A DNA stretch of 64,000 nucleotides from Bacteroidales bacterium (GTDB taxonomy: Bacteria; Bacteroidota; Bacteroidia; Bacteroidales; WCHB1-69): NCBI GenBank assembly GCA_017961265.1, contig JAGCXN010000021.1, positions 4,793 to 68,792 of the forward strand, given 5' to 3'. Under the pieces are notes generated by a model, which saw only the letters and a list, made by a program, of their open reading frames with translations, did no database searches and had not been told where the DNA came from. Of the stretch, positions 35,896 to 51,703 are shown piece by piece. Both the position numbers and the translations under genes were made by a program. Position 1 is the stretch's first letter; every line of letters starts with the position of its first letter.

Positions 35896-36033
35896 CAAAA
35901 CCTGTTTTGTAACAATTTTGTAGGTTTTCTGCCCAAGCATTGTCACTTTTTGTCGGAATCCTGACACTTTTTATCTTTCTGTTTTTCAGAAAAATAGCAG
36001 AAAACACCTCTTGAAAAAGCATTTCGGTTGCTG

Positions 36034-36041
36034 TATCTTTG
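36034..36041 (+). promoter_or_regulatory. -7 box TATCTTTG upstream of the PDDEXK_2 remnant
   Basis: Lies 29 nt upstream of the ATG at 36071. Confidence 0.45.
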
Positions 36042-36070
36042 CGGCTCAAGTACTACCTAAAAAAGACAAA

Positions 36071-36642
36071 ATGAAAAGGAAGAAGCAAAAGCAAGAGGTG
36101 CGGGTAGTGAAGAACCAGAACGGCGACCGTTTCATCGTGGAGATGCAGAACGGATGGCAGAAGCATTTCGGCGAGCGTGCAATTGTCTATGCGGGCCGGG
36201 CTGCCGGGCAAAGTGTGAAGAGAGGTGACAATCTGTATGAGAATGTCAAAGGCGTATATTCCTTGAACATAGTGGCTTACAATATGCCAGAATTCAAAGG
36301 AAAGAAGAAATTCTTTTGGAAAGTCTATCTGAAGGATGACCAAAACAAAATTTTTTCTAAAAAAAACGTCCTCTATTTCGTGGAATTGAGTAAATTTGCC
36401 GCCCAGTTGGGAACATTGGATATGGCCGACGAGCGTAACCATTGGCTCTATATGCTGACGCAGGCCGTGCATTTGAGCCAGGACGATGTGGAGGCGATGA
36501 CGCCGGTGTTCCAGCGGTTTTATGAGGAATGTCAGATTACAAAATTTACGGATATGGATACCTCCTTGCCTTAGGCATCCCCCTCGGTGATGTAGCCAAA
36601 GCTACAGGACTGACAGAAGACCAAATCCGAAAGCTTCAGTAG
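36071..36642 (+). pseudogene. decayed PD-(D/E)XK nuclease-family (PDDEXK_2 / Rpn-like) transposase-like gene
   Basis: The core motif RFIVEMQNGWQKHF and the later YFVELSKF...WLYML are present. The usual ~60-residue N-terminus is missing. The family-typical C-terminal tail GIPLGDVAKATGLTEDQIRKLQ is encoded at 36574-36642, in a different frame from the body, which stops at 36572-36574. Confidence 0.55.
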
Positions 36643-36820: not shown

Positions 36821-36848
36821 CTATTCACTATACCCTATACCCTATTCC
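36821..36848. repeat. heptad array CTATTCA CTATACC CTATACC CTATTCC (the complement is related to the GGTRATA family)
   Basis: Four units. The last unit contains the giant gene's stop codon (36842-36844). Confidence 0.7.
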
Positions 36849-39800
36849 TTCACCACCTTCCGCACCGCCATCACCTTGCCGCCATTCACCATTCTTACGA
36901 AATAAACGCCGGTGGCATAATGCGACAGGTCGATTTGCACGGTCTGTACGGACGCACTGCGTGCGTCCGAAATATCCACAGCATCCAACACCCTACCGTA
37001 TACATCCAACACCTGAATCTCACCAGCCCCTAATTGTACATTGTTCATTGTAAATTGTACATTGACCATCCCCGTGGTGGGGTTGGGATAGAGGGAGAGG
37101 ATGCCGTCAGCGTAGTCATCAATTCCTGATATCGTCACATCAATACATTCTGTTGTATCCGTACATTCGCCCATCGTGATGACACATGCATATTGACCTG
37201 AAATTGCTGGATTAAATCTCTGGTGCACCTCACCTTCAATTGTTTCATTGGTTTCACAATCAATCCACTGATATTCAGCACCTTCTTGCATCACTTCAAG
37301 CGACCAAGCATCTAGTTCTTCTGTTGTTGTCACCAATACTTCAGTATTAATCGTAATCACCGTCAGGTGCAACGTAACCACACTGTCGCAGCCGTTGGCA
37401 TTGGCGAACGTCTGCACATAGTCACCGGATTCTTCGTAAACCTCATCGTTCCAGACGTAACTGCCGCAAGCTGTTTCTGTGAATTCTGTGGTGTCGGCGA
37501 CATTGATGGTCAGGTGCAACGTCACCACACTGTCGCAACCGTATTGAGTTGAAAATTGAAAATTGAAAACTGAAAGGTTGGGGGTGCCAACATCGAAGGT
37601 GGTGTCGATGTCGCCGTTCACGTAGTGGTATGGAAGGTCGTTCTCGCAGAGGGTGACTTCGACAAGCTCAGTCACCGCCGGATGAATGGTGAGGTGCAGC
37701 GTAACAGTGCTGTCACAGCCATTCGCTGCCGTGAAAGTAGCGGTATAGTCCCCGGAAGACGTCAGCGTCTCGCCATTCCACTCATATTCGTCGCATGCGG
37801 TCATGTGGGTCTCATTCACTACTGGCTGGTTAATGGTGAGGTGCAGCGTAACCGTACTGTCACACCCCGCCGCATTCGTCAAAACGTCGGTGTAGTCGCC
37901 GCTTTCGGTGAGATTGGTGTAGCCGTGCCAGTCGAAGCTGCCGCACGCCGTGGCGGTGGTGTCGCCCTCGGTCGGTGTATTGATGGTGAGGTGCAGCGTG
38001 ACGGTGCTGTCACAGCCCGCCGCATTCTCTATAACGTCGGTGTAGTCGCCGCTTTCGGTAAGGTTGGTGTAGCCGTGCCAGTTGAAACTGCCGCAAGCCG
38101 TGGCGGTGGTGTCGCCCTCAGTAGGTGTGTTGATGGTCAGGTGCAACGTCACAGTGCTGTCACATCCAGCGGCATTCGTCAAAACGTCGGTGTAGTCGCC
38201 ACTCTCGGTGAGGTTGGTATAGCTGTGCCAGTTGAAACTGCCGCAAACCGTGGCGGAGGTGTCGCTCTCAGTAGGTGTGTTGATGGTGAGATGAAGTGTG
38301 ACAATACTGTCGCAGCCCTCGGCATTTTCCAAAACGTCGGTGTAATCACCGCTTTCGGTGAGATTGGTGTAGCCGTGCCAGTCGAAGCTGCCGCATGCCG
38401 TAGCGGTGGTGTCACTCTCGGTCGGCTCGTTGATGGTAAGGTGCAGCGTCACCACACTGTCGCATCCATTCGCCGCAGTAAAAGTAGCCGTGTAATCTCC
38501 CGAAGCCGTAAGTGTTTCGCCGTTCCACTCATATTCGTCACATGCCGTCATATAGGTCTCATTCTCCACCGGTTGATTGATGTTAACCGTCAGTATCACC
38601 GTGCTGTCACACCCGTATTGAGTTGAAAATTGAAAACTGAAAATTGAAAGGTTTGGTGTGCCGACTTCAAAGGTAATGTCAATGTCGCCGTCCACGTAGT
38701 GGTAAGGAAGTTCACTTTCGCACACGGTGACTGAGCTTGTCGAAGTCACCGCGGGGTGAACAGTGAGATGCAGGGTGACGGTACTATCGCACCCAAGGGG
38801 AGTTAAAAGTTGAAAGTTAAAAGTTGAGAGCTGGGGTGTACCGACCTCGAAGGTGGTGTCGATGTCGCCGTTGATGTAGTGGTACGGAAGTTCACCCTCG
38901 CAGATCTCATGGGTGAAGGAGGTGACGATGGGCGTACAGCCGCCGGTGCTGAAGTGCCACACTGCCGACCACACCGAGTTGCCCACGCCGTTGTACCCCT
39001 GTACCCGCCAATAGTAGGTGGTAGCGGGACGGAGATTGTGGATGGAGGCGGTGGTCTGTGCGGTAGTGCCCTGCGCAAACAGGGTGGAAAAATCGCTGCT
39101 GGTGCTCACTTGGTAGCGGTAACCGTTGACGTTGGCCAGCGTGTCCCATTGCAGAGCCAGAACAGATTGGAAGTCAATGTCGGAAGAGTCGTTGGCAGGC
39201 GAGACAAGCGTCGGTCCGGTGGTGAGCTGGTAAGGTGTGGTGAACCTCCAAACCGTTGACCAGCTGGAGGTGTCGGGGGCATTGCTGTTGATAGCGCACA
39301 CCCGCCAATAGTAGGTGGTGCCATATTGCAGTTCTGCCTCTGTGATATAGACACTTGCACCTGATGCGGTGAAGGTCGCAAATAACGGAGAGTTGAAGGT
39401 TGCAGCAGTGTCCCACTCCAGAATATAATGGTCGGCTCCCGTTACGCTATTCCAATAAACGGTAAGACGGGAATTGCTATAGGAGGAGAAGGCTGTTCCA
39501 TCGGCCGGTGAGGTCAGTACGGGTGCATCGCTGGTGGTGAACCTCCAAACCGTTGACCAGCTGGAGGTGTCGCTGTCGTTGCTGTTGATAGAGCACACTT
39601 TCCAGTAATAGGTGGTGCCGAAATTCAGCTCTGTGATATAAATACTTGATGCTGTGGCGGTGAAAGTCTCGTACAACGGAGAGTCAAAGGTGGGCACGGT
39701 GTCCCATGCCACTATGTAATGTCCCGCACCTGTGACGGAATTCCAATAGACGGTGGCTTTTACTGAGTTGGTATAAACGTAGCCGTCGCTGGGGGAGGTC

Positions 39801-42800
39801 AGTACGGGCACGCCATTCGTAGTGGTAAAATTCCACACCGCCGACCAATCGGTGGTGTCCACCGGGCTGGTCTCGCGCACCCGCCAATAGTAGGTGGTTC
39901 CAAAATGCAAACTAGTGACCGAGACCTGACTGGTGCCCACCGCAATCGTGCCAGTCGCAAGACTGGGTGAGTCGAAAGTGGCGCAGGTATCGTACTGGTA
40001 TTCGTATAGACTGCCGCCTCTGATGTAGTCCCAGTCCAAAGTGGTGGATGCTCCGACATTGGTGGAACCGTTGGCCGGCGATACCAACACGATTTCACCA
40101 GGTGTGTTGAAACTCCACGTCTCGCTCCACGGGGTGGTGTCGATGGCGGTGTACTCGCGCACCCGCCAGTAGTAGGTTTCACCAAATTGCAGAGGCGCGG
40201 TGATGTCTATTTGGCTGGTGCCCACGGCAATTTCCCCGTTCACCAATGCCGGTGAATCAAAGTCGGGACTGAGATCGTACTGGTATTGGTAGTTCAATCC
40301 GCCGCTGATATAGTCCCAATCCAACGTTGTATTAATGGTGCGGGAAAGAGTGGAACCGTTGGAGGGCGATACCAATGCAATTTCACCGGGCGTGTTGAAA
40401 CTCCACGTCTCGCTCCACGGGGTGGTGTCGATGGCGGTGTACTCGCGCACCCGCCAGTAGTATGTCTCGCCAAAACGCAGAGGCTCGGTGATGTCTATTT
40501 GGCTGGTGCCCACGGCAATTTCCCCGTTCACCAATGCCGGTGAATCAAAGTCGGGACTGAGGTCGTACTGGTATTCGTAGTAGTCGCCATCGGAGATATA
40601 ATCCCAGTCCAAGGTGGGCTTGATGGTACGCGAGAGGGTGCTGCCGTTGGAGGGGGAGGTGAGCGCAATGGTGCCTGCGGTGGTGAAGCGCCACACGGTG
40701 GACCAGCTGGAGGTGTCGCTGTTCAGACGGATGCGCACGCGCCAGTAGTAGGTGGTGCCGTAGCGGAGTTGGTTGAGCCGCACCTCGGAAGTGCCTGCCG
40801 CAATGGCGCCGCTCTGCAGCTCGGGTGAGTTGAACTGCGGGGTGGTGTCGCACTCGTAGTCATAATAGTCGCAGCTGGAGACGGCGTTCCAATCAAGGGT
40901 CGGACGGAGCCGCACCGCAGTAGAACCGTTGGAGGGCGAGGACAGTGTGGGGATGCTGCCGCCCGTGGTGAAACTCCACACGGTGGACCAGCTGGAGGTG
41001 TCGCTGTCATCGTTGTAGTTGGTGGCACGCATACGCCAGTAGTAGGTGGTGCCCAACTTCAGAGGACCGATGGAGGTACTATTGGAGGTTTTCGTTGTGC
41101 TGGCACACAGCGGGGAATTGAAAGTGGCGGTGGTGTCCCACTGGTAAATGTACTTTCCGACACGCGTGATGGCGGTGCATTTCAAGGTGGGGGTCGCCGA
41201 ATTAGGATAGACGTATCCATCACTGGGTGAAGTTAATATGGGCGCATCGCTGGTAGTGAAAGTCCATGCGGCCGACCAAGCCGAAGTGTCACTATCGTTA
41301 CTATTGGTAGCGCAAACTCTCCAATAGTAGGTAGTGGCGAATTTTATGGGCCAAATATTCACACTGGTCCCTGTGGTGGTGAAGCTATCGTAAAGGGGAG
41401 AGTCAAAGGTGGAAACGGTATCCCAGGCCAGTATGTAGTGGCTTGCTCCCGTAATGCTTGCCCAATTGACAGTAGGACCGACACAAGCGGTATAAACCAC
41501 ACCATCGCTGGGCGAGGTTAACGTGGGCACACCGCTGGTGACTGTAAAACTCCATGCGTCAGACCATCCGGACGTATCGGGTGCCTCATTCACCGACCGT
41601 ACCCGCCAATAGTAGGTGTCGCCAAATCGCAAATTGCTGAGCGCGTATGATTTGTAGTCGTCATTATTGGTAATGGATGATGTAACGATGATTTCACGCA
41701 GGGAGGAAGAATTGAAACCGGACGAGGTGTCCACCTGTAAGATGTATTTTGACGAACCACTGCTATTCTTCCACTGAAGGGTGGCGGAAGGAGATGCATT
41801 GGTGGTCTGATCTGCCGGACTGTACAAATAAACTTTGTCTCGGGTGTGAAACTGCCATGTGTCCGACCATCCAGAGGTGTCGGGTGCATTGTTGATGGCA
41901 CACAACCTATAGTAGTACATCGCCCCATGAAGCAGGTTATAGACCGTTGTACTCAACTCATTGGTCTCATCGTCTATGCCGTTGGAAATAACGACTTGAC
42001 GTAAGACAGATGAATTGAAATCAGGTGTAGTATCCAATTGAAGAATATATTTTGTTGAACCTCTGTTGTTTTGCCATTTCAAGGTCTGTCGGGTATAGTA
42101 GGTTTTTGTCGGGACAGTGTCGTGGATGGTATTGGACGTAGAGAAAACCTTGTCGATGGTGTGAAACTGCCATGTGGCCGACCAACCCGATGTGTCGGGT
42201 GCATTGTTTATGGCACAGACCCGATAGTAGTACATCGTACCATATAGCAGGTTATAGACTGTCGTACTCAACTCATTTGTCTCATTGTCAATATTATTGG
42301 TGGTAATGACTTGACGTAATATAGACGAATTGAAATCAGGCGTAGTGTCTAATTGAAGGATATACTTGGTTGAACCACGGTTGTTCTGCCATTTCAAGAT
42401 CTGTCGGGTATAGTAGTTTTTGGTTGAATCGGAATTGTTGAGGGTGTTGGATGTAGAGAAAACCGTGTCTATGGTGTGGAACTGCCATGTGGCCGACCAA
42501 CCCGATGTATCGGGTGCATTGTTGATGGCACATACCCGATAGTAGTACATTGTGCCATATAGCATATTATAAACCTTGGTGCTCAGCTCATTGGTGGTGT
42601 TGTCAATGGCATTTGTCGTATAAATCTCCCGAAGAATGGGCGAGTTAAAATGGGGTGTTGTATCTAATTGAAGAATATATTTTGTTGAGCCCTTGTTGTT
42701 TTTCCAGTAAAGAGTTTGGCGGGTATAGTAGTTTCGGGTTGAATCAGAGTTGTTGAGGGTATTGTCTGTATTATTTACAAAATCCGTAGTGCGGAACTGC

Positions 42801-43738
42801 CAAGTGGATGACCAACTGGAGGTGTCGGAGCCGTTATAGTTGGCAGCCCGCACCCGCCAATAATACATTGAACCATATCGCATATTGTTGATAATGACGC
42901 TTTGGTTGTCGGTCGTGGAAGTGGAGGAAGATGTGTGGTTAATCTGTTGTAAAACGGGTGAATTAAAATGGGGTGTGGTATCTAATTGTAGAAAGTACTG
43001 CGTTACGCCCCGGTAGGGCTTCCAAGTCAAAGTCTGCCGAGTAAAATAGTTGGCAGAGGAACTTGTATCATTGAAAGATACCAACGTGATACTGTCGCTG
43101 GTGGTGAAACTCCTCACCGCCGACCATGCCGAGGTGTCGCTCTCATCCGTATTGGTCGCCCTCATGCGAAGGTAGTAGGTCTTACCGAAATGCAGATTGA
43201 GTGGGTATTTTCCTCCAGAACTATATTCTGTAGTATAGCTTTTTAACAAGGGTGAATTGAACGACATGCTGGTATCACACTGATAGAGGTATTTGGTAGC
43301 ACCCACAATTTCTGTCCATTGGATGCTGGGAGATATGCTATTGGTGAGAATAGTCCCGTCAGCCGGGGCGGTAATGGTGGGCGCATCTGTGGTAGTGAAG
43401 CTCCGCACCGCCGATGCAGCCGATGTGTCGGCATAGTTGGCCGTGATGGCATAAACCCGCCAGTAATAGGTTGTGCCGAATTTCAATCCGTTCACGTTCA
43501 ATCCCGTGTACGAAGACGACATGGTGTAAGAACTGTAAGTAGCAAAAGTGGGGTCCTCCGACCAATGGAACAGATAATAACTTGCTCCTGAAACAGCATT
43601 CAGCTTCAAATTCGGCTTTACCGTGCTGGGATATACATAACCATCGGCAGGTGAGTTCAGCGTCGGTGCTGCAATCTGCGCAAACAAAACATTCATCCCC
43701 GCACACAGCAGGAAAATAAAGAAGGTGAACTTTTTCAT
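36842..43738 (-). CDS. giant (about 2298 aa) T9SS cargo / putative adhesin: signal peptide, 16 FN3-like modules, 10 Cys-pair modules and a T9SS C-terminal sorting domain
   Basis: Signal peptide MKKFTFFIFLLCAGMNVLFAQ. Sixteen repeats end in the motif TYYWRV...DTS.WS..W.FTT. The Cys-pair modules have the form C..Y.W.G.....SG.Y.......GCDS.VTLHLT(I/V). The C-terminus (LSLYPNPTTGMVNVQF...GVYFVRMVNGGKVMAVRKVVKE) is the Por_Secre_tail type. Confidence 0.85.
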   Translation of the reverse strand: MKKFTFFIFLLCAGMNVLFAQIAAPTLNSPADGYVYPSTVKPNLKLNAVSGASYYLFHWSEDPTFATYSSYTMSSSYTGLNVNGLKFGTTYYWRVYAITANYADTSAASAVRSFTTTDAPTITAPADGTILTNSISPSIQWTEIVGATKYLYQCDTSMSFNSPLLKSYTTEYSSGGKYPLNLHFGKTYYLRMRATNTDESDTSAWSAVRSFTTSDSITLVSFNDTSSSANYFTRQTLTWKPYRGVTQYFLQLDTTPHFNSPVLQQINHTSSSTSTTDNQSVIINNMRYGSMYYWRVRAANYNGSDTSSWSSTWQFRTTDFVNNTDNTLNNSDSTRNYYTRQTLYWKNNKGSTKYILQLDTTPHFNSPILREIYTTNAIDNTTNELSTKVYNMLYGTMYYYRVCAINNAPDTSGWSATWQFHTIDTVFSTSNTLNNSDSTKNYYTRQILKWQNNRGSTKYILQLDTTPDFNSSILRQVITTNNIDNETNELSTTVYNLLYGTMYYYRVCAINNAPDTSGWSATWQFHTIDKVFSTSNTIHDTVPTKTYYTRQTLKWQNNRGSTKYILQLDTTPDFNSSVLRQVVISNGIDDETNELSTTVYNLLHGAMYYYRLCAINNAPDTSGWSDTWQFHTRDKVYLYSPADQTTNASPSATLQWKNSSGSSKYILQVDTSSGFNSSSLREIIVTSSITNNDDYKSYALSNLRFGDTYYWRVRSVNEAPDTSGWSDAWSFTVTSGVPTLTSPSDGVVYTACVGPTVNWASITGASHYILAWDTVSTFDSPLYDSFTTTGTSVNIWPIKFATTYYWRVCATNSNDSDTSAWSAAWTFTTSDAPILTSPSDGYVYPNSATPTLKCTAITRVGKYIYQWDTTATFNSPLCASTTKTSNSTSIGPLKLGTTYYWRMRATNYNDDSDTSSWSTVWSFTTGGSIPTLSSPSNGSTAVRLRPTLDWNAVSSCDYYDYECDTTPQFNSPELQSGAIAAGTSEVRLNQLRYGTTYYWRVRIRLNSDTSSWSTVWRFTTAGTIALTSPSNGSTLSRTIKPTLDWDYISDGDYYEYQYDLSPDFDSPALVNGEIAVGTSQIDITEPLRFGETYYWRVREYTAIDTTPWSETWSFNTPGEIALVSPSNGSTLSRTINTTLDWDYISGGLNYQYQYDLSPDFDSPALVNGEIAVGTSQIDITAPLQFGETYYWRVREYTAIDTTPWSETWSFNTPGEIVLVSPANGSTNVGASTTLDWDYIRGGSLYEYQYDTCATFDSPSLATGTIAVGTSQVSVTSLHFGTTYYWRVRETSPVDTTDWSAVWNFTTTNGVPVLTSPSDGYVYTNSVKATVYWNSVTGAGHYIVAWDTVPTFDSPLYETFTATASSIYITELNFGTTYYWKVCSINSNDSDTSSWSTVWRFTTSDAPVLTSPADGTAFSSYSNSRLTVYWNSVTGADHYILEWDTAATFNSPLFATFTASGASVYITEAELQYGTTYYWRVCAINSNAPDTSSWSTVWRFTTPYQLTTGPTLVSPANDSSDIDFQSVLALQWDTLANVNGYRYQVSTSSDFSTLFAQGTTAQTTASIHNLRPATTYYWRVQGYNGVGNSVWSAVWHFSTGGCTPIVTSFTHEICEGELPYHYINGDIDTTFEVGTPQLSTFNFQLLTPLGCDSTVTLHLTVHPAVTSTSSVTVCESELPYHYVDGDIDITFEVGTPNLSIFSFQFSTQYGCDSTVILTVNINQPVENETYMTACDEYEWNGETLTASGDYTATFTAANGCDSVVTLHLTINEPTESDTTATACGSFDWHGYTNLTESGDYTDVLENAEGCDSIVTLHLTINTPTESDTSATVCGSFNWHSYTNLTESGDYTDVLTNAAGCDSTVTLHLTINTPTEGDTTATACGSFNWHGYTNLTESGDYTDVIENAAGCDSTVTLHLTINTPTEGDTTATACGSFDWHGYTNLTESGDYTDVLTNAAGCDSTVTLHLTINQPVVNETHMTACDEYEWNGETLTSSGDYTATFTAANGCDSTVTLHLTIHPAVTELVEVTLCENDLPYHYVNGDIDTTFDVGTPNLSVFNFQFSTQYGCDSVVTLHLTINVADTTEFTETACGSYVWNDEVYEESGDYVQTFANANGCDSVVTLHLTVITINTEVLVTTTEELDAWSLEVMQEGAEYQWIDCETNETIEGEVHQRFNPAISGQYACVITMGECTDTTECIDVTISGIDDYADGILSLYPNPTTGMVNVQFTMNNVQLGAGEIQVLDVYGRVLDAVDISDARSASVQTVQIDLSHYATGVYFVRMVNGGKVMAVRKVVKE
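37548..37577. repeat. in-frame heptad block GTTGAAAATTGAAAATTGAAAACTGAAAGG (encodes [10 protein letters not shown])
   Basis: Read directly. It belongs to the TTTTCAR family in the opposite orientation. Confidence 0.85.
37831..38430. repeat. four tandem 150-bp coding repeats (50-aa Cys-pair modules) inside the giant gene
   Basis: Unit boundaries at 37831, 37981, 38131, 38281 and 38431 each begin with (g/a)ttgatggt(g/c)aggtgca(g/a)cgt. The peptide unit is TPTE(S/G)DT.AT.CGSF(D/N)WH.YTNLTESGDYTDV..NA.GCDS.VTLHLTIN. Confidence 0.9.
38622..38651. repeat. in-frame heptad block GTTGAAAATTGAAAACTGAAAATTGAAAGG (encodes [10 protein letters not shown])
   Basis: Read directly. A third, more diverged block (gttaaaa gttgaaa gttaaaa gttgaga) lies at 38802-38829. 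Confidence 0.85.
41850..42795. repeat. three tandem 315-bp coding repeats (105-aa FN3-like modules) inside the giant gene
   Basis: The string aactgccatgtggccgacc recurs at 42165 and 42480, exactly 315 bp apart. The peptide GWSATWQFHTID...YYYRVCAINNAPDTS repeats. Confidence 0.85.
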
Positions 43739-43746
43739 AGTGAGAC

Positions 43747-43778
43747 CTTTCAATTATCAGTTTTCAATTTTCAGTTTA
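43747..43778. repeat. heptad block CCTTTCAATTATCAGTTTTCAATTTTCAGTTT in the 5' leader of the giant gene
   Basis: It lies between the -7 box (43789-43796) and the ATG (43736-43738). It is an inverted copy of 38622-38651, matching at 27 of 29 positions with a 17-bp perfect core, and of 37548-37577. Confidence 0.85.
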
Positions 43779-43787
43779 AAAGGACGG

Positions 43788-43877
43788 CAAAAGTACACAC
43801 ATTTTTTTGAATATTTATCCCTTCAAAACAGAAATGTGAACCCTCACAAAGGGATAAAGTGGGATGCGAGGATACGG
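43788..43877. repeat. left copy of a ~90-bp direct repeat flanking the ATPase cassette; contains the giant gene's -7 box
   Basis: Shared strings with 45209-45300: GCAAAAG(T/C)ACA, GAAAT(G/A)TGAACCCTC(AC/GT)(A/G)AAGGGA and ATGCG(A/G)GGATACG. Confidence 0.7.
43789..43796 (-). promoter_or_regulatory. -7 box (TACTTTTG) for the giant T9SS cargo gene
   Basis: Lies 50 nt upstream of the ATG at 43738. The intervening leader consists almost entirely of heptad repeats. Confidence 0.55.
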
Positions 43878-43965
43878 AAGTCATATCTCAACCTCCGCTT
43901 TTACAAACTTTTCAATCTAAAGTAAAAAAAAGATGTGGTTTTTTACTTTGAAAAGTAAAAAATTG

Positions 43966-43973
43966 TATTTTTG
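43966..43973 (+). promoter_or_regulatory. -7 box TATTTTTG for the AAA ATPase
   Basis: Lies 13 nt upstream of the ATG at 43987. Confidence 0.45.
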
Positions 43974-43986
43974 CAGCACATTAAAA

Positions 43987-45189
43987 ATGATAGATATGGA
44001 CCGATTATTTAAGGCGTATGGCCGTCTGTTGGCGGAAACCGATTTGAAATTCACCCGATATTTATATGATAATATCAACTGGGACAATCGGTTGATTGTG
44101 ATCAAGGGTGCAAAAGGAGTGGGTAAAACGACCTTGATGTTGCAACACATCAAGAAAGATTTTCCCAAAGCGGAAAAGGCTCTGTATGCCTCGCTTGACC
44201 ATTTGTGGTTTGCCACACACTCCATCCTTGATTTGGCAGAATATCATTATACGCATGGGGGAACGCATCTTTTTCTGGATGAGGTACACAAATACAAAGG
44301 ATGGCAACAAGAAATCAAGAATATTTATGATTCCTATCCCCAGCTACATGTTGTTGTAACGGGTTCATCCATGCTAAAAATCGACGAATCGTTATCCGCA
44401 GACCTTTCACGCCGACATCGTCTTTATACGATGGAGGGACTTTCGTTTCGGGAATACCTGAGTCTTGAGCATGTGGTGGAATTGCCGATCTTTTCGTTGG
44501 AGGAAATTCTAAACAACCATTTTGTGATGGCTTCACAAATCACATCAGATGTGAAAGTGCTACACCATTTTGAAAAGTATCTGAAGTCGGGCTACTATCC
44601 GTTTTATCGGGAAGAGGAGGATGGCTTTTTTGACAGGTTGCAACAAGTGATTGAAACTATTATCACCAATGAAATACCATCGGTTAGCAATATTGAATAC
44701 GATTCTGTATATAAAGCCAAGCAATTGCTGGCAGTATTGGCCGAGCAATCACCTTATACACTGAACATTTCATCTTTATGCAACACCTTGCAATCTTCCA
44801 GAAACAATGTGGTGAAACTGCTTGACCTGATGAGCAGGGCGGCCTTGATTCGTCGGCTTTATGCATCGTCGGATGGAATGAATATGTTGACAAAACCTGA
44901 AAAAATCCTCTTTTACAATACCAATCTGATGTTTTGTCTCACTTCGAACGTCGATGCGGGCACTTTGCGTGAAACTTATCTCGCCTCTCAGATTGGCACA
45001 GCGCACAAACTTTCCATGCCGGAAAAGGGAGATATAGTGGCAGATGGGAAGTGGCTTTTTGAAGTAGGAGGGAAAAGCAAGGGTTTTTCGCAGATCAAAA
45101 ATATTGAAGCGAGCTACGTGGTCGCTGATGATATGGAAATCGGTCACGGCAACAAAATTCCACTGTGGCTTTTCGGACTGCTGTATTGA
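43987..45189 (+). CDS. AAA-family ATPase (AAA_14 plus DUF4143-type architecture)
   Basis: Walker A (GAKGVGKTT) and Walker B (LFLDEVH). The C-terminal half is typical of stand-alone Bacteroidales ATP-binding proteins. I prefer the ATG at 43987, with a -7 box at 43966-43973. Confidence 0.65.
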   Translation: MIDMDRLFKAYGRLLAETDLKFTRYLYDNINWDNRLIVIKGAKGVGKTTLMLQHIKKDFPKAEKALYASLDHLWFATHSILDLAEYHYTHGGTHLFLDEVHKYKGWQQEIKNIYDSYPQLHVVVTGSSMLKIDESLSADLSRRHRLYTMEGLSFREYLSLEHVVELPIFSLEEILNNHFVMASQITSDVKVLHHFEKYLKSGYYPFYREEEDGFFDRLQQVIETIITNEIPSVSNIEYDSVYKAKQLLAVLAEQSPYTLNISSLCNTLQSSRNNVVKLLDLMSRAALIRRLYASSDGMNMLTKPEKILFYNTNLMFCLTSNVDAGTLRETYLASQIGTAHKLSMPEKGDIVADGKWLFEVGGKSKGFSQIKNIEASYVVADDMEIGHGNKIPLWLFGLLY

Positions 45190-45208
45190 TGCTTTAGAGC
45201 ATAAGGTT

Positions 45209-45300
45209 GCAAAAGCACAAAAATTTCCTGAAAATTCACCCTCTTCACGGCCGAAATATGAACCCTCGTGAAGGGAAAAAAGAAATGCGGGGATACGATT
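45209..45300. repeat. right copy of the ~90-bp direct repeat; its -7 box is degenerate (TGCTTTTG)
   Basis: See 43788-43877. It is followed by three GGATACGA mini-repeats up to about 45338. Confidence 0.7.
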
Positions 45301-45669
45301 ATGCGGGGATGTGGGGATACGAGGATGAGAGGATACGATTAGAATCCTTTTTTAAACACCTTGCAGCCATAAGCCGAAGAAGGGGTCATACACCATATAT
45401 GCGGACTTTTCCTGTGTTATGAAATCTTTTTGTATCAATAATTTGCCGGCAAAATACAACTTTTATCCTAGATAGGATAATCCTGATTAGGATAATTTTA
45501 CATTTTTCGGAGCGAGCCACCAGAGTTATCATGGTAATTTCTGAATATATCTGTTTCTCTATTAGTTACAAGACCTCAAAGTCAAGAAAGGTACGAAGCC
45601 GTTCCATTCTCTCTTCCGCGGCATCACCTACGGTGTTCTTCTTTACCTGTCGCCCGTGCCGCGGGCACC

Positions 45670-51016: not shown

Positions 51017-51703
51017 TTAGAAAGCGAACGAGACCGTGTCTTGCGCTTTCATCTTATTGATAGTGTTCTCCATCGTCTTTTTGAAAAGGCCCTTCGTCGG
51101 TTTGGCTTCAATTTTGCCAATTTTTGAAATAGGCATATCAAACGTGCGGGTCGATTTCGGAGGCACCTGCCCGACCACTTCATTGTTCACAAAAATTTCC
51201 AACGGAACTGTTTGTGTATTTTCCACCTTCAGGACATACGTAACATCCGCATTGATAAGGCTCTGCGCCAAGCTGGAAGCTAATTTCATTATAGCATCAA
51301 GATCCTCTAACTGGGCAATTTCGCGGGCCGTGGCGAGGACGATGGCTTTCTCCACATCAATCAGACGGGCTTGTACATAGAACTTCTCCTGAAACTTAGT
51401 GATGTCGGTCACGCATACCAAATCAACACCGAACTGGCGACCCAACTCGCAAATTTGGCTGTCATCCACATTACCGCCACGTTGGTAATCCTGCTCCTTG
51501 GAAATCTCCGAGAGGAACTCCACTGTTCGCTCAATGGCATTGTACTCCTTCGTAGCCACAAAAGCTGCAACCACCTCACTTCCAATAATTTTCTTAGTCT
51601 CTTTCGGAACACTTTCCGTAGCCGTCACATAGACAGCCACTTTCGTTTGTGCTGACAACAGAATCGGCACAAGAAGTATCAGAATCAAAACAATTTTTTT
51701 CAT
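51017..51703 (-). CDS. secreted hypothetical protein (possible LpoB/CsgG-like fold)
   Basis: Signal peptide MKKIVLILILLVPILLSAQ. The segment KVAVYVTA...YNAIERT resembles LpoB/CsgG-like domains only weakly. Confidence 0.3.
   Translation of the reverse strand: MKKIVLILILLVPILLSAQTKVAVYVTATESVPKETKKIIGSEVVAAFVATKEYNAIERTVEFLSEISKEQDYQRGGNVDDSQICELGRQFGVDLVCVTDITKFQEKFYVQARLIDVEKAIVLATAREIAQLEDLDAIMKLASSLAQSLINADVTYVLKVENTQTVPLEIFVNNEVVGQVPPKSTRTFDMPISKIGKIEAKPTKGLFKKTMENTINKMKAQDTVSFAF

What the first reader, a model, noticed from the sequence alone, without database searches (positions are those of the whole stretch)
43788..45340. The AAA-ATPase cassette is bracketed by ~90-bp direct repeats that duplicate the giant gene's promoter region
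Regions 43788-43877 and 45209-45300 align in the same orientation. Their shared blocks are GCAAAAG(T/C)ACA, GAAAT(G/A)TGAACCCTC..AAGGGA and ATGCG.GGATACG. Both contain a CCCT-N5-AGGG mini-hairpin.

The left copy carries the functional-looking -7 box of the giant gene (TACTTTTG on the minus strand). The right copy has a degenerate box (TGCTTTTG) and points antisense into the 3' end of the ATPase gene.

This geometry is what a 1.4-kb insertion or duplication event would leave: the ATPase gene was captured into the upstream regulatory region of the cargo gene. The conserved hairpin-containing block about 45 nt upstream of the -7 box could be a regulator binding site shared by both copies.
Basis: partly seen in the sequence, partly recalled or inferred. 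Interest (0 to 1): 0.55.

Follow-up and report, generated by a model that had tools for sequence, protein, structure and literature searches.

The report
Repeat-bracketed defence-candidate ATPase gene cassette
A 1.3-kb single-gene cassette for a putative phage-defence ATPase sits upstream of a giant secreted-protein gene, between two diverged copies of that gene's promoter region. Related cassettes in other rumen bacteria sit in unrelated places and are often bracketed in the same way, which points to acquisition by recombination, not by a classical transposon.

Summary
Window 43788-43877 and 45209-45300 are same-orientation repeats, 74% identical, with local alignment score 56 against a shuffle maximum of 26. 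They are the only two copies in the 64 kb.

They bracket a compact cassette: 2 palindromic boxes, its own promoter and a 397-aa AAA_14/DUF4143 ATPase. The ATPase matches the untested PADLOC defence candidate PDC-S01.

This is one case of a wider pattern.
- Cassettes 77-99.8% identical occur in at least 36 different contexts in rumen and gut Bacteroidales metagenomes.
- In 12 of the 36, 28-140-nt imperfect direct repeats of unrelated, mostly demonstrably local sequence flank the cassette. Nine repeat families are seen.
- Among other genes in the same loci, 13 of 289 show such repeats.
- Several of those exceptions are other single-gene candidates: PDC-S27, PDC-S05 and PDDEXK_2.

In one context, empty sites show that the outer repeat copy keeps the original flank. 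There the inner junction is a 6-nt microhomology to carried-over foreign flank.

Cassette ends are imprecise and no recombinase lies nearby. I therefore favour recombinational acquisition at an anchor gene, either homology-facilitated illegitimate recombination or a Campbell-type crossover.

For this window no clean empty site exists. The only close relative lacks the cassette, but its promoter region aligns only around the -7 box.

The parts
36842..43738 (-). Giant T9SS cargo gene (2298 aa), the 'anchor' whose promoter region is duplicated
   Evidence: The ORF is. Pfam finds fn3 / Pur_ac_phosph_N repeats and a C-terminal Por_Secre_tail. Its 5' end (43672-43738) lies inside the block shared at 88% with L071, L013 and L012.
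43788..43877 (+). Left repeat copy (DR-U). It is contiguous with the giant gene's 5' UTR. On the minus strand it carries the -7 box TACTTTTG (43789-43796) and the CCCT-N5-AGGG hairpin (43841-43853).
   Evidence: The -7 box and 5' UTR align with the promoter of the giant-gene orthologue in L091: score 49 against a shuffle maximum of 44.
43878..43906 (+). Spacer of about 29 nt between DR-U and the conserved cassette. Its origin is unknown and may be carried-over donor flank.
   Evidence: The sequence found with a 36-nt query (43877-43912) spanning the spacer and the start of box 1 is identical over its first 32 nt (43877-43908) in L071, L013 and L012, and occurs in no other locus.
43907..43975 (+). 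Cassette control region. It holds two palindromic boxes, ACTTT..AAAGTAAAAAA (43907-43931 and 43944-43962), and the -7 box TATTTTTG (43966-43973).
   Evidence: This region is conserved upstream of homologous ATPase genes in unrelated contexts, with 2-4 boxes per cassette. Reading it as a promoter rests on the Bacteroidetes TAnnTTTG consensus, which is my own knowledge.
43996..45189 (+). AAA_14/DUF4143 ATPase gene (397 aa), PADLOC candidate PDC-S01
   Evidence: Pfam AAA_14 scores 105.8 bits; DUF4143 scores 25.3 bits, below its cutoff of 28.1. PADLOC PDC-S01 gives E = 1.9e-31. Thousands of homologues are 77-99% identical, nearly all 397 aa.
45190..45208 (+). 19-nt spacer between the stop codon and the right repeat copy
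   Evidence: In other contexts the cassette's right end lies 0-93 nt after the stop.
45209..45340 (+). Right repeat copy (DR-D, 45209-45300) followed by a tandem expansion of its terminal 8-nt units (45283-45340). Its -7 box is degenerate (TGCTTTTG).
   Evidence: Homology with L071 ends inside this copy, at 45275.
45344..45500 (-). Remnant ('ghost') of a second cassette of the ATPase_2 family. The promoter with ATCCT-N4-AGGAT palindromes (45437-45499) and the last 26 codons (45344-45429) survive. About 1.06 kb of ORF is deleted.
   Evidence: L091 carries the intact 368-aa gene. L091 1814-1877 matches window 45499-45437 at 95%, and L091 2935-3020 matches 45429-45344 at 98%.

Best explanation
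**What it is.** The ATPase gene is a compact, self-promoted, single-gene cassette of about 1.3 kb, roughly window 43907-45200. It belongs to a family that is shuffled horizontally among rumen and gut Bacteroidales.

**How it got here.** It was placed in the promoter-proximal region of the giant T9SS gene by a recombination event that used that region as a homologous anchor.
- One join was by homology in the anchor.
- The other was an illegitimate or short-homology join that landed on the near side of the anchor.
- About 90 nt of promoter region therefore ended up on both sides of the cassette.

The process would be homology-facilitated illegitimate recombination of linear DNA, or equivalently a single crossover of a circle carrying cassette plus anchor copy.

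**What the two copies do.** The left copy, contiguous with the gene, still serves as the giant gene's promoter. The right copy is a decaying relic with a broken -7 box and an expanded 8-mer tract.

**Consequence.** Once bracketed, the unit repeat-cassette-repeat can be lost by recombination between the repeats. It can also be copied into any allele or paralogue that has the anchor sequence.

**Shown.** The repeats exist. The cassette has discrete though imprecise limits. It occurs in many contexts. Local-sequence repeats recur around it. One other context has an empty site and a microhomology junction.

**Inferred.** That this mechanism acted at this locus, which piece of DNA was the incoming one, and promoter function.
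For: 1. The repeats are real and there are only two copies in the window.
2. Near-identical cassettes sit in unrelated flanks. L059 and L072 are 99.8% identical from -214 to +38. L050 and L052 are 98% identical from -174 to +93. L061/L064, L050/L036, L017/L021, L035/L043 and L053/L054 have limits between -92 and -126 upstream and between -1 and +42 downstream.
3. 12 of 36 testable contexts have flanking same-orientation repeats with score >= 45. They form 9 unrelated sequence families, 28-140 nt long and 74-96% identical.
4. Controls are far lower: 2 of 150 and 2 of 144 random segments at the score >= 50 cutoff, and 13 of 289 other genes at score >= 45.
5. The repeats are local sequence where this can be read: the 3' end of the neighbouring gene (L008 group), the 5' end of a secreted-protein gene (L064), terminators (L030, L038, L073), and here a promoter.
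6. An empty site exists for the L008 context. In L097-L101 the anchor gene's 3' end runs straight into the sequence that follows the outer repeat copy in L008. The other copy stays attached to the gene.
7. In L008 the inner edge of the outer copy joins, at the 6-nt microhomology GGATGC, to the last codons and terminator of a restriction-modification S-subunit-type gene found elsewhere in L097 and L114. This is carried-over foreign flank.
8. Ends are imprecise, and L037 carries L038's upstream repeat copy without a downstream one.
9. Other single-gene candidates (PDC-S27, PDC-S05, PDDEXK_2, ATPase_2) are bracketed in the same way, sometimes in one array with the same repeat. That argues for a general host-level process.
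10. No recombinase or transposase family is among the Pfam hits within 10 kb either side of the cassette.
11. The window block 43672-45275 (the giant gene's first ~65 nt and 5' UTR, repeat, cassette, repeat) is shared at 88% with L071, L013 and L012. There the right neighbour differs and the left gene is a shorter T9SS gene. This is as expected if the bracketed unit spreads through homology in the anchor.
12. The closest relative of the giant gene (L091) has no such cassette upstream.
Against: - There is no clean empty site for this locus. L091's promoter region aligns with the repeats only at the -7 box and 5' UTR.
- Microhomology was shown at one junction in one other context only.
- For L008 the same structure could arise if the neighbouring restriction-modification module, not the ATPase cassette, was the incoming DNA.
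- 24 of 36 contexts show no such repeat, for example after pgk and after feoB. Bracketing is therefore not obligatory.
- In the L039/L045/L047 group the repeat is a multi-copy element of about 115 nt with terminal inverted repeats, separating several cassettes. This looks more like a recombination site than a one-off target copy.
- Metagenome contigs can be chimeric across multi-copy cassettes.
- Natural transformation, or another delivery route, is unproven for these organisms.
Confidence: 0.55

Rival explanations
1. The cassette is a self-mobilising element. The encoded ATPase-nuclease, or a partner acting in trans, makes widely staggered cuts, and repair produces long target-site duplications of variable length.
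For: - The same geometry recurs around one gene family in 12 of 36 contexts.
- The family is described as an ATPase fused to a PD-(D/E)XK-type domain (PMC12988326; DUF4143 is listed in PMC3424549).
- Conserved iterated palindromic boxes lie at the left end.
- The family is very abundant and occurs in many contexts.
Against: - Cassette limits differ between pairs: -92 to -214 upstream and -1 to +93 downstream.
- No conserved right-end motif or terminal inverted repeat was seen.
- Foreign flank is carried over and a junction shows microhomology.
- Unrelated gene families (ORF6N/PDC-S05, PDDEXK_2) are bracketed in the same way.
- Two thirds of contexts have no such repeat.
- In this protein DUF4143 scores below Pfam's cutoff.
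Confidence: 0.12
2. The repeats are recombination sites of an integron-like system. Cassettes would be excised and inserted at structured sites of about 60-140 nt by a tyrosine recombinase encoded elsewhere.
For: - In L039 and L047, repeats of about 115 nt with terminal inverted repeats (CTCCACCATC...GATGGTGGAG) separate 3-4 different cassettes whose order differs between contigs.
- Several repeats fold into long hairpins: L017 z = -4.8, L039-U z = -2.6.
- The length range resembles attC sites (own knowledge).
- Bacteroidales have a described integron-like system, rAID-1, with repetitive intergenic sequences (bioRxiv 10.1101/471110).
Against: - The repeat families share no motif or common fold. 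WIN-D, L008 and L064 fold no better than shuffles.
- Several repeats are demonstrably pieces of resident genes, and an empty site shows this for L008.
- Each cassette has its own promoter, and orientation varies.
- No recombinase family appears in the Pfam hits within 10 kb either side.
- There are only two copies here, one of which doubles as the promoter of a resident gene.
Confidence: 0.1
3. The two copies are promoters of two tandem paralogous T9SS genes. The ATPase cassette replaced the body of the second paralogue, leaving its promoter behind.
For: - T9SS paralogues with near-identical 3' ends (and, in L071, a matching 5' end) lie in tandem in L071 and L091.
- The block shared with L071 includes the first ~65 nt of the T9SS coding region.
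Against: - The right copy stops about 9 nt past its -7 box. It abuts the ATPase stop codon within 10-19 nt, with no trace of a 5' UTR, start codon or signal peptide.
- The same geometry with unrelated sequences elsewhere needs a general cause.
Confidence: 0.1
4. The 90-bp unit is a generic dispersed repeat or a shared regulatory module of the genome, and the cassette merely lies between two copies.
For: - Some bracketing repeats elsewhere are multi-copy: L017/L021, and L039 and L047 with 4-5 full or partial copies per locus.
- The GAAATRTGAACCCTC core is the best conserved part in all four copies examined.
Against: - There are only two copies in 64 kb.
- In 113 fetched loci the 15-mer occurs only in the orthologous loci, twice each.
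- The rest of the source genome and the public genomes were not validly searched.
Confidence: 0.06

Closest known systems
PADLOC phage-defence candidate PDC-S01 (AAA_14 + DUF4143, COG1373-type ATPases)
   Same: - The protein matches PDC-S01 models (E = 1.9e-31) and Pfam AAA_14.
- Like the family, it is a single gene, very abundant in rumen Bacteroidales, and often next to restriction-modification, McrBC or Abi genes (PMC13356809; PMC12988326).
   Different: - The papers read describe occurrence and phylogeny only. They do not describe a discrete cassette with its own operator-like boxes, movement between contexts, or bracketing repeats.
- Defence activity is unproven for the family and for this gene.
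Homology-facilitated illegitimate recombination, and Campbell-type single crossover at an anchor (own knowledge of the transformation literature)
   Same: - One side of the junction is homologous. The other is a join at a few bases of microhomology.
- Foreign flank is carried in.
- Duplication arises when the illegitimate join lands inside the anchor.
- The two copies can differ from birth.
- This fits L008 and the imprecise cassette limits.
   Different: - It is known as a laboratory and occasional natural route, not as a recurrent builder of bracketed single-gene cassettes and arrays.
- Neither the delivery route nor the enzymes were shown here.
Integron cassettes / attC arrays, and the integron-like rAID-1 clusters of Bacteroidales
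   Same: - Single-gene units are separated by 60-140-nt repeats.
- Arrays occur with shuffled order (L039, L047).
- Some repeats are hairpin-forming. See bioRxiv 10.1101/471110.
   Different: - No integrase lies nearby, and there is no common site motif.
- Repeats are derived from resident genes.
- Cassettes carry their own promoters and face either way.
Insertion sequences and transposons with target-site duplications
   Same: An inserted segment is flanked by a same-orientation duplication of target sequence, and an empty site exists in relatives.
   Different: - The duplications are 28-140 nt, variable and imperfect, instead of short and fixed.
- There is no transposase, no terminal inverted repeats and no defined ends.
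Tandem genomic islands at one attachment site, with repeated copies of a gene end between the islands
   Same: Copies of an anchor gene's end separate successive inserted modules and keep the anchor gene intact (L008, L064, L047).
   Different: - The modules are single genes of 1-1.7 kb without integrases.
- The anchors are diverse: promoter, 5' end, 3' end or terminator.

Membership tests
PDC-S01 / AAA_14-DUF4143 ATPase | AAA_14 P-loop domain above Pfam's gathering score | tested here: met
   PF13173 scores 105.8 bits against a cutoff of 27, residues 34-158. The Walker A motif GAKGVGKTT is invariant in the alignment.
PDC-S01 / AAA_14-DUF4143 ATPase | C-terminal DUF4143 (PD-(D/E)XK-type) domain | tested here: inconclusive
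   PF13635 scores 25.3 bits, below its cutoff of 28.1, and covers only part of the profile. The AF2 model was too poor to judge (pLDDT 46.8). There is no PDB sequence match.
PDC-S01 / AAA_14-DUF4143 ATPase | Match to PADLOC PDC-S01 profiles | tested here: met
   Seven PDC-S01 models match, the best with E = 1.9e-31 over residues 30-325.
PDC-S01 / AAA_14-DUF4143 ATPase | Protection against phage | not testable with these tools
   The literature read calls the family an unvalidated candidate (PMC12988326).
Insertion sequence / transposon | Encoded transposase or recombinase | tested here: not met
   The cassette's only ORF is the ATPase. No recombinase family appears within 10 kb either side.
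Insertion sequence / transposon | Defined ends with terminal inverted repeats | tested here: not met
   Limits of homology between cassettes in different contexts vary: -92 to -214 upstream and -1 to +93 downstream. No conserved terminal inverted repeat was found.
Insertion sequence / transposon | Short target duplication of fixed length | tested here: not met
   The duplications are 28-140 nt, variable, and 74-96% identical.
Integron cassette | Integrase gene and attI next to the array | tested here: not met
   None is found within 10 kb of the window cassette. Flanks of the L039 and L047 arrays were only partly visible.
Integron cassette | attC-type site: imperfect palindrome with a conserved core, shared in structure by all cassettes | tested here: not met
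   The nine repeat families share no motif. Folding beats shuffles for some (L017, L030, L038, L039-U) but not for WIN-D, L008 or L064. The conserved core was compared by eye only.
Integron cassette | Promoterless, co-oriented cassettes | tested here: not met
   Each cassette has its own -7 box and operator-like boxes. In the window the cassette is divergent from its neighbour.
Diversity-generating retroelement (template and variable repeat) | Reverse transcriptase nearby, and mismatches confined to adenines of one copy | tested here: not met
   There is no RT family within 10 kb either side. Mismatches involve all bases and both copies.
Known RNA family or tRNA-derived attachment site | Match to an Rfam model or a tRNA gene at the repeat | tested here: not met
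   No Rfam match reaches its gathering score anywhere in the window. The only tRNA is at 51091-51164.

The most novel reading that the evidence does not exclude
PDC-S01 is the most frequent 'defence' locus reported in rumen genomes, and PDC-S27, PDC-S05 and PDDEXK_2 genes behave similarly. In the novel reading, these genes are primarily selfish single-gene mobile elements. Their own ATPase-nuclease products, binding the iterated boxes at the cassette's left end, would promote breakage and copying of the cassette into new sites and leave long target duplications. That would be a new class of transposase-less mobile element, and would mean that part of the catalogued 'defensome' is mis-assigned.
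Probability: 0.1. Interest if true: 0.85.

Novelty: new variant of a known kind. Interest (0 to 1): 0.55.

Why it matters
PDC-S01 is reported as the most frequent single defence-candidate locus in rumen genomes and the fourth most common defence system across prokaryotes (PMC13356809, PMC12988326). Nothing is known about how it spreads or why it is so numerous.

The data here show three things.
- It travels as a discrete self-promoted cassette.
- It lands next to many kinds of genes.
- In a third of contexts it is bracketed by copies of local sequence, as are other single-gene candidates.

That gives a concrete, testable picture of how defence hot spots and 'embedded' genes are assembled: anchor-guided recombination that leaves readable scars, namely duplications, microhomology and carried-over flank.

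It also offers a practical signature for finding recently acquired cassettes and their empty sites in metagenomes.

For the window itself, a resident gene's promoter has been duplicated, and the working copy now lies directly next to a foreign gene's control region.

Tried and rejected
- **Faulty public-genome scan.** In one search I wrote N4 instead of N3 between CCCTC and AAGGGA, so the pattern could not match the real unit. The four hits are chance matches; the Gillisia hit examined (L002) lies in coding DNA. The error was found, and no second scan was allowed. Absence of the unit from public genomes is therefore NOT established.
- **Rfam and tRNA.** Nothing at the repeats.
- **Diversity-generating retroelement.** Rejected: mismatches are not adenine-specific and there is no RT.
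- **Classical transposon or integron.** Defining features are not met.
- **Structure of the ATPase.** The alignment was too shallow and gave pLDDT 46.8, so no fold search was run. There is no PDB sequence relative.
- **Viral contigs.** No relative of the ATPase. One phage record matches at 38%.
- **Plasmid homologues.** They are about 40% identical. The two finished records examined have no bracketing repeat.
- **Donor arrangement for L008** (restriction S gene directly followed by the cassette). Not found among the fetched loci.
- **Clean empty site for the window locus.** Only one close orthologue of the giant gene exists in the protein collection (P0121 / L091), and it is too diverged in non-coding DNA.
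- **Literature.** No paper in the library links DUF4143, COG1373 or PDC-S01 to bracketing repeats or cassette mobility.
Full report
**1. The observation**

Window 43788-43877 and 45209-45300 are same-orientation repeats.
- They align over 91 columns at 74% identity.
- The local score is 56, against a mean of 16.4 and a maximum of 26 for 500 shuffles.
- A scan of both strands of the window finds no third copy.
- The 15-mer core occurs only at these two places.
- On the minus strand the left copy reads TACTTTTG, about 50 nt upstream of the giant gene's ATG (43738). The right copy reads TGCTTTTG.
- The right copy ends in a tandem expansion of 8-nt units up to 45340.

**2. What lies between and around the repeats**

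- The giant gene (36842-43738, minus strand, 2298 aa) is a type IX secretion cargo protein with fn3-type repeats and a Por_Secre_tail.
- The gene between the repeats is an AAA_14 ATPase with a weak DUF4143 match. It matches the PADLOC candidate PDC-S01 at E = 1.9e-31.
- Nearly all listed homologues are 397 aa, so the start is ATG 43996.
- Upstream of the ATPase lie two palindromic boxes, ACTTT..AAAGTAAAAAA (43907-43931 and 43944-43962), and a TAnnTTTG-type -7 box (43966-43973).
- The window is part of an 81-kb ENA metagenome contig.
- No recombinase or transposase family appears among the Pfam hits within 10 kb either side.
- There is no Rfam match in the window, and the only tRNA is far away.

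**3. The cassette is a discrete unit that changes context**

The protein has thousands of relatives at 77-99% identity. I fetched 79 loci from metagenomes and more by exact-protein look-up.

The boxes, the promoter and the ORF are conserved in all of them. The DNA further out is not.

Pairs of cassettes that are 92-99.8% identical sit in unrelated flanks.

| Pair | Identity | Limits of homology (from ATG, from stop) |
|---|---|---|
| L059 / L072 | 99.8% | -214 to +38 |
| L050 / L052 | 98% | -174 to +93 |
| L061 / L064 | 95.3% | -92 to +42 |
| L050 / L036 | 93.4% | -103 to +29 |
| L017 / L021 | 95.1% | -126 to 0 |
| L035 / L043 | 94.2% | -98 to -1 |
| L053 / L054 | 91.8% | -122 to +28 |

The unit is therefore about 1.3 kb, and its ends are not fixed. 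Contexts include restriction-modification and McrBC islands, and also housekeeping neighbours such as pgk and feoB.

**4. Bracketing repeats recur, with unrelated sequences**

I compared the 500 nt upstream with the 500 nt downstream of each cassette. 12 of 36 testable contexts have same-orientation repeats with score >= 45.
- They fall into nine unrelated sequence families.
- They are 28-140 nt long and 74-96% identical.
- The upstream copy ends about 100-290 nt before the ATG.
- The downstream copy starts 5-263 nt after the stop.

Controls are far lower:
- 2 of 150 random 1.2-kb segments of the window reach score >= 50, all inside the repetitive giant gene.
- 2 of 144 random segments of the loci reach score >= 50.
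- 13 of 289 other genes reach score >= 45, against 19 of 50 ATPase genes.

Several of those 13 exceptions are themselves single-gene candidates:
- PDC-S27;
- PDC-S05 (ORF6N);
- a PDDEXK_2 gene bracketed by a duplicated terminator;
- an ATPase_2 gene.

One of the 13 is the same ATPase gene in L010, which the flagging missed.

In most families the repeats can be read as local sequence:
- the 3' end of the neighbouring gene (L008 group);
- the promoter and signal-peptide end of a secreted protein gene (L064);
- terminators (L030, L038);
- here, a promoter.

**5. An empty site and a junction**

Orthologues of the 401-aa gene next to the cassette in L008 are common. Downstream of that gene the region occurs in at least four states:
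- nothing;
- AbiE plus a type I-like methylase and S subunit;
- a DUF4143 fragment plus the same methylase module;
- the cassette plus a type IIG enzyme.

In L097 the gene's last 60 nt run straight into the sequence that, in L008, follows the outer repeat copy (84% over 123 nt). The other copy stays attached to the gene. This is the structure of a duplicative insertion.

The inner edge of the outer copy joins, at the 6-nt microhomology GGATGC, to the last codons and terminator of an S-subunit-type gene that lies elsewhere in L097 and L114. Foreign flank therefore came along, and the join was illegitimate.

All three occupied contigs examined share these junctions, so this was one ancestral event. 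I cannot tell whether the cassette or the neighbouring restriction module was the incoming DNA.

**6. The window locus in this light**

Contigs L012, L013 and L071 carry a 93%-identical ATPase with the same two repeat copies.
- Copy-specific differences are shared: T versus C in the -7 box, and CA(A/C)AAC versus CACGGC. The duplication is therefore older than the split of these lineages.
- Homology with the window runs only from 43672 to 45275. That block is the giant gene's first ~65 nt and 5' UTR, the repeat, the cassette and the repeat.
- To the left, L071 has a shorter T9SS gene.
- To the right, L071 has another AAA_14/DUF4143 gene and then a closer match to the window's giant gene.

The only close orthologue of the giant gene's 5' part (P0121, locus L091) has no such cassette upstream.
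- It has one promoter, which aligns with the repeats only around the -7 box and 5' UTR (score 49 against a shuffle maximum of 44).
- It also has an intact 368-aa ATPase_2 cassette.
- In the window, that cassette's promoter and last 26 codons survive at 45344-45500, at 95-98% identity, with the ORF body deleted.

The region upstream of the giant gene is thus a hot spot that has held at least two different cassettes.

**7. Arrays**

In L039, L040, L045 and L047 the bracketing repeat is an element of about 115 nt with terminal inverted repeats.
- It occurs 4-5 times (full or partial) per locus in L039 and L047; L045 shows only the two bracketing copies.
- It separates PDC-S27, PDC-S05 and PDC-S01 cassettes, whose order differs between contigs.
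- Homology between L039 and L045 ends exactly at the outer edges of the repeats.

This part of the data fits an integron-like reading, or repeated acquisition at one anchor. I could not see the ends of these arrays.

**8. Mechanism**

The following features argue against a dedicated transposase and for recombinational acquisition guided by an anchor sequence:
- imprecise ends;
- carried-over flank;
- a microhomology junction;
- repeats that differ from each other and are made of resident sequence;
- the same pattern for unrelated gene families;
- absence of a nearby recombinase.

In that model one side joins by homology and the other by an illegitimate or short-homology join that lands inside the anchor. 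Part of the anchor is thereby duplicated. A circle of cassette plus anchor copy integrating by one crossover gives the same product.

Once bracketed, the unit can be deleted by repeat-repeat recombination. It can also be copied into any allele or paralogue of the anchor. This would explain blocks whose homology ends at the outer repeat edges (window versus L071; L039 versus L045).

These steps are inferred. Only the structures are shown.

**9. Comparison with what is known**

- The gene is a member of PDC-S01. That family is an untested defence candidate described as an ATPase fused to a PD-(D/E)XK-type domain, and it is very frequent in rumen genomes (PMC13356809, PMC12988326, PMC3424549).
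- None of the papers found describes cassette limits, context changes or bracketing repeats.
- The integron-like rAID-1 clusters of Bacteroidales have a recombinase and repetitive intergenic sequences. Neither a recombinase nor a shared site motif is seen here.
- Transposon, integron and retroelement memberships fail on defining features.

**10. Limits**

- My scan of public genomes used a faulty pattern and says nothing.
- All data come from metagenome assemblies. These can be chimeric across multi-copy cassettes, so absence of a repeat is weak evidence.
- Presence of imperfect repeats in independent assemblies is not an assembly artefact (L008, L009 and L014; the window and L012, L013 and L071).
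- The protein model was unusable.

**11. Verdict**

The finding is real and its core reading holds: a cassette was inserted with duplication of the promoter region. It is one instance of a recurrent, undescribed pattern for abundant single-gene defence candidates.

- The gene itself is a new member of a known kind.
- The bracketed-cassette behaviour is a new variant of known recombinational gene acquisition.
- Interest is moderate. It would be high if the cassettes prove to mobilise themselves.

Noticed in passing
window 45344-45500 (minus strand): Remnant of an ATPase_2-family cassette. The promoter with two ATCCT-N4-AGGAT palindromes and the last 26 codons survive. About 1.06 kb of ORF is missing relative to the intact 368-aa gene in L091 (95-98% identity in the surviving parts, against 81-86% in the adjacent giant gene).
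   Followed up: yes
window 45283-45340: Tandem expansion of 8-nt units (ATGCGGGG / GGATACGA / GGATGAGA; about 5 copies) at the end of the right repeat copy. The left copy has a single GGGATGCGAGGATACG.
   Followed up: partly
window 43907-43962, and the upstream regions of L008, L092, L108 and others: Iterated boxes, partly palindromic (ACTTT-N(2-6)-AAAGTAAAAAA), occur in 2-4 copies upstream of every cassette of this family. They look like operator or iteron sites for the encoded protein. Other cassette families have their own palindromes: ATCCT-N4-AGGAT for ATPase_2, and CCCTCATTGAGGG three times upstream of a Segatella copri plasmid homologue (L112).
   Followed up: partly
L112 (Segatella copri plasmid NZ_CP137558.1), upstream of the AAA ATPase at 2992: The palindrome CCCTCATTGAGGG, repeated three times there, resembles the CCCTC...GAGGG / CCCT-N5-AGGG hairpin inside the window's repeat unit. 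This may be coincidence, or a hint that the unit once belonged to a cassette control region.
   Followed up: no
window 36011-36574: A short PDDEXK_2 (Rpn-like 'nuclease family transposase') ORF lies just past the 3' end of the giant gene. It has no bracketing repeat here, but a full-length PDDEXK_2 gene in L073 (1775-2728) is bracketed by a duplicated 51-nt terminator.
   Followed up: partly
L047 3337-8021; L039 832-6311: Arrays of single-gene candidates (PDC-S27, PDC-S05/ORF6N, PDC-S01) are separated by a repeat of about 115 nt with terminal inverted repeats CTCCACCATC...GATGGTGGAG. Cassette order differs between contigs. In L047 a half copy lies in the 5' end of a dihydroorotate dehydrogenase-like gene.
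   Followed up: partly
L008-L011, L014, L095-L106, L114-L121 (downstream of a conserved 401-404-aa gene next to rtcB): A defence hot spot with at least four states: empty; AbiE plus methylase and S subunit; DUF4143 fragment plus methylase and S subunit; PDC-S01 cassette plus a type IIG enzyme.
   Followed up: yes
L059 3560-3625 / L072 4793-4858: A perfect 66-nt palindrome lies at -208 to -143 upstream of a 99.8%-identical cassette pair, inside the part that travels with the cassette.
   Followed up: no
window 43748-43777: A tandem 14-nt repeat (TTTCAATTATCAGT, 2.1 copies) lies in the 5' UTR of the giant gene, between its -7 box and its start codon.
   Followed up: no
L071 6291-7646 and 913-1090: The contig with the closest relative of the window cassette carries two further AAA_14/DUF4143 genes or fragments within 5 kb. 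One is convergent with the cassette, directly after the right repeat copy.
   Followed up: partly
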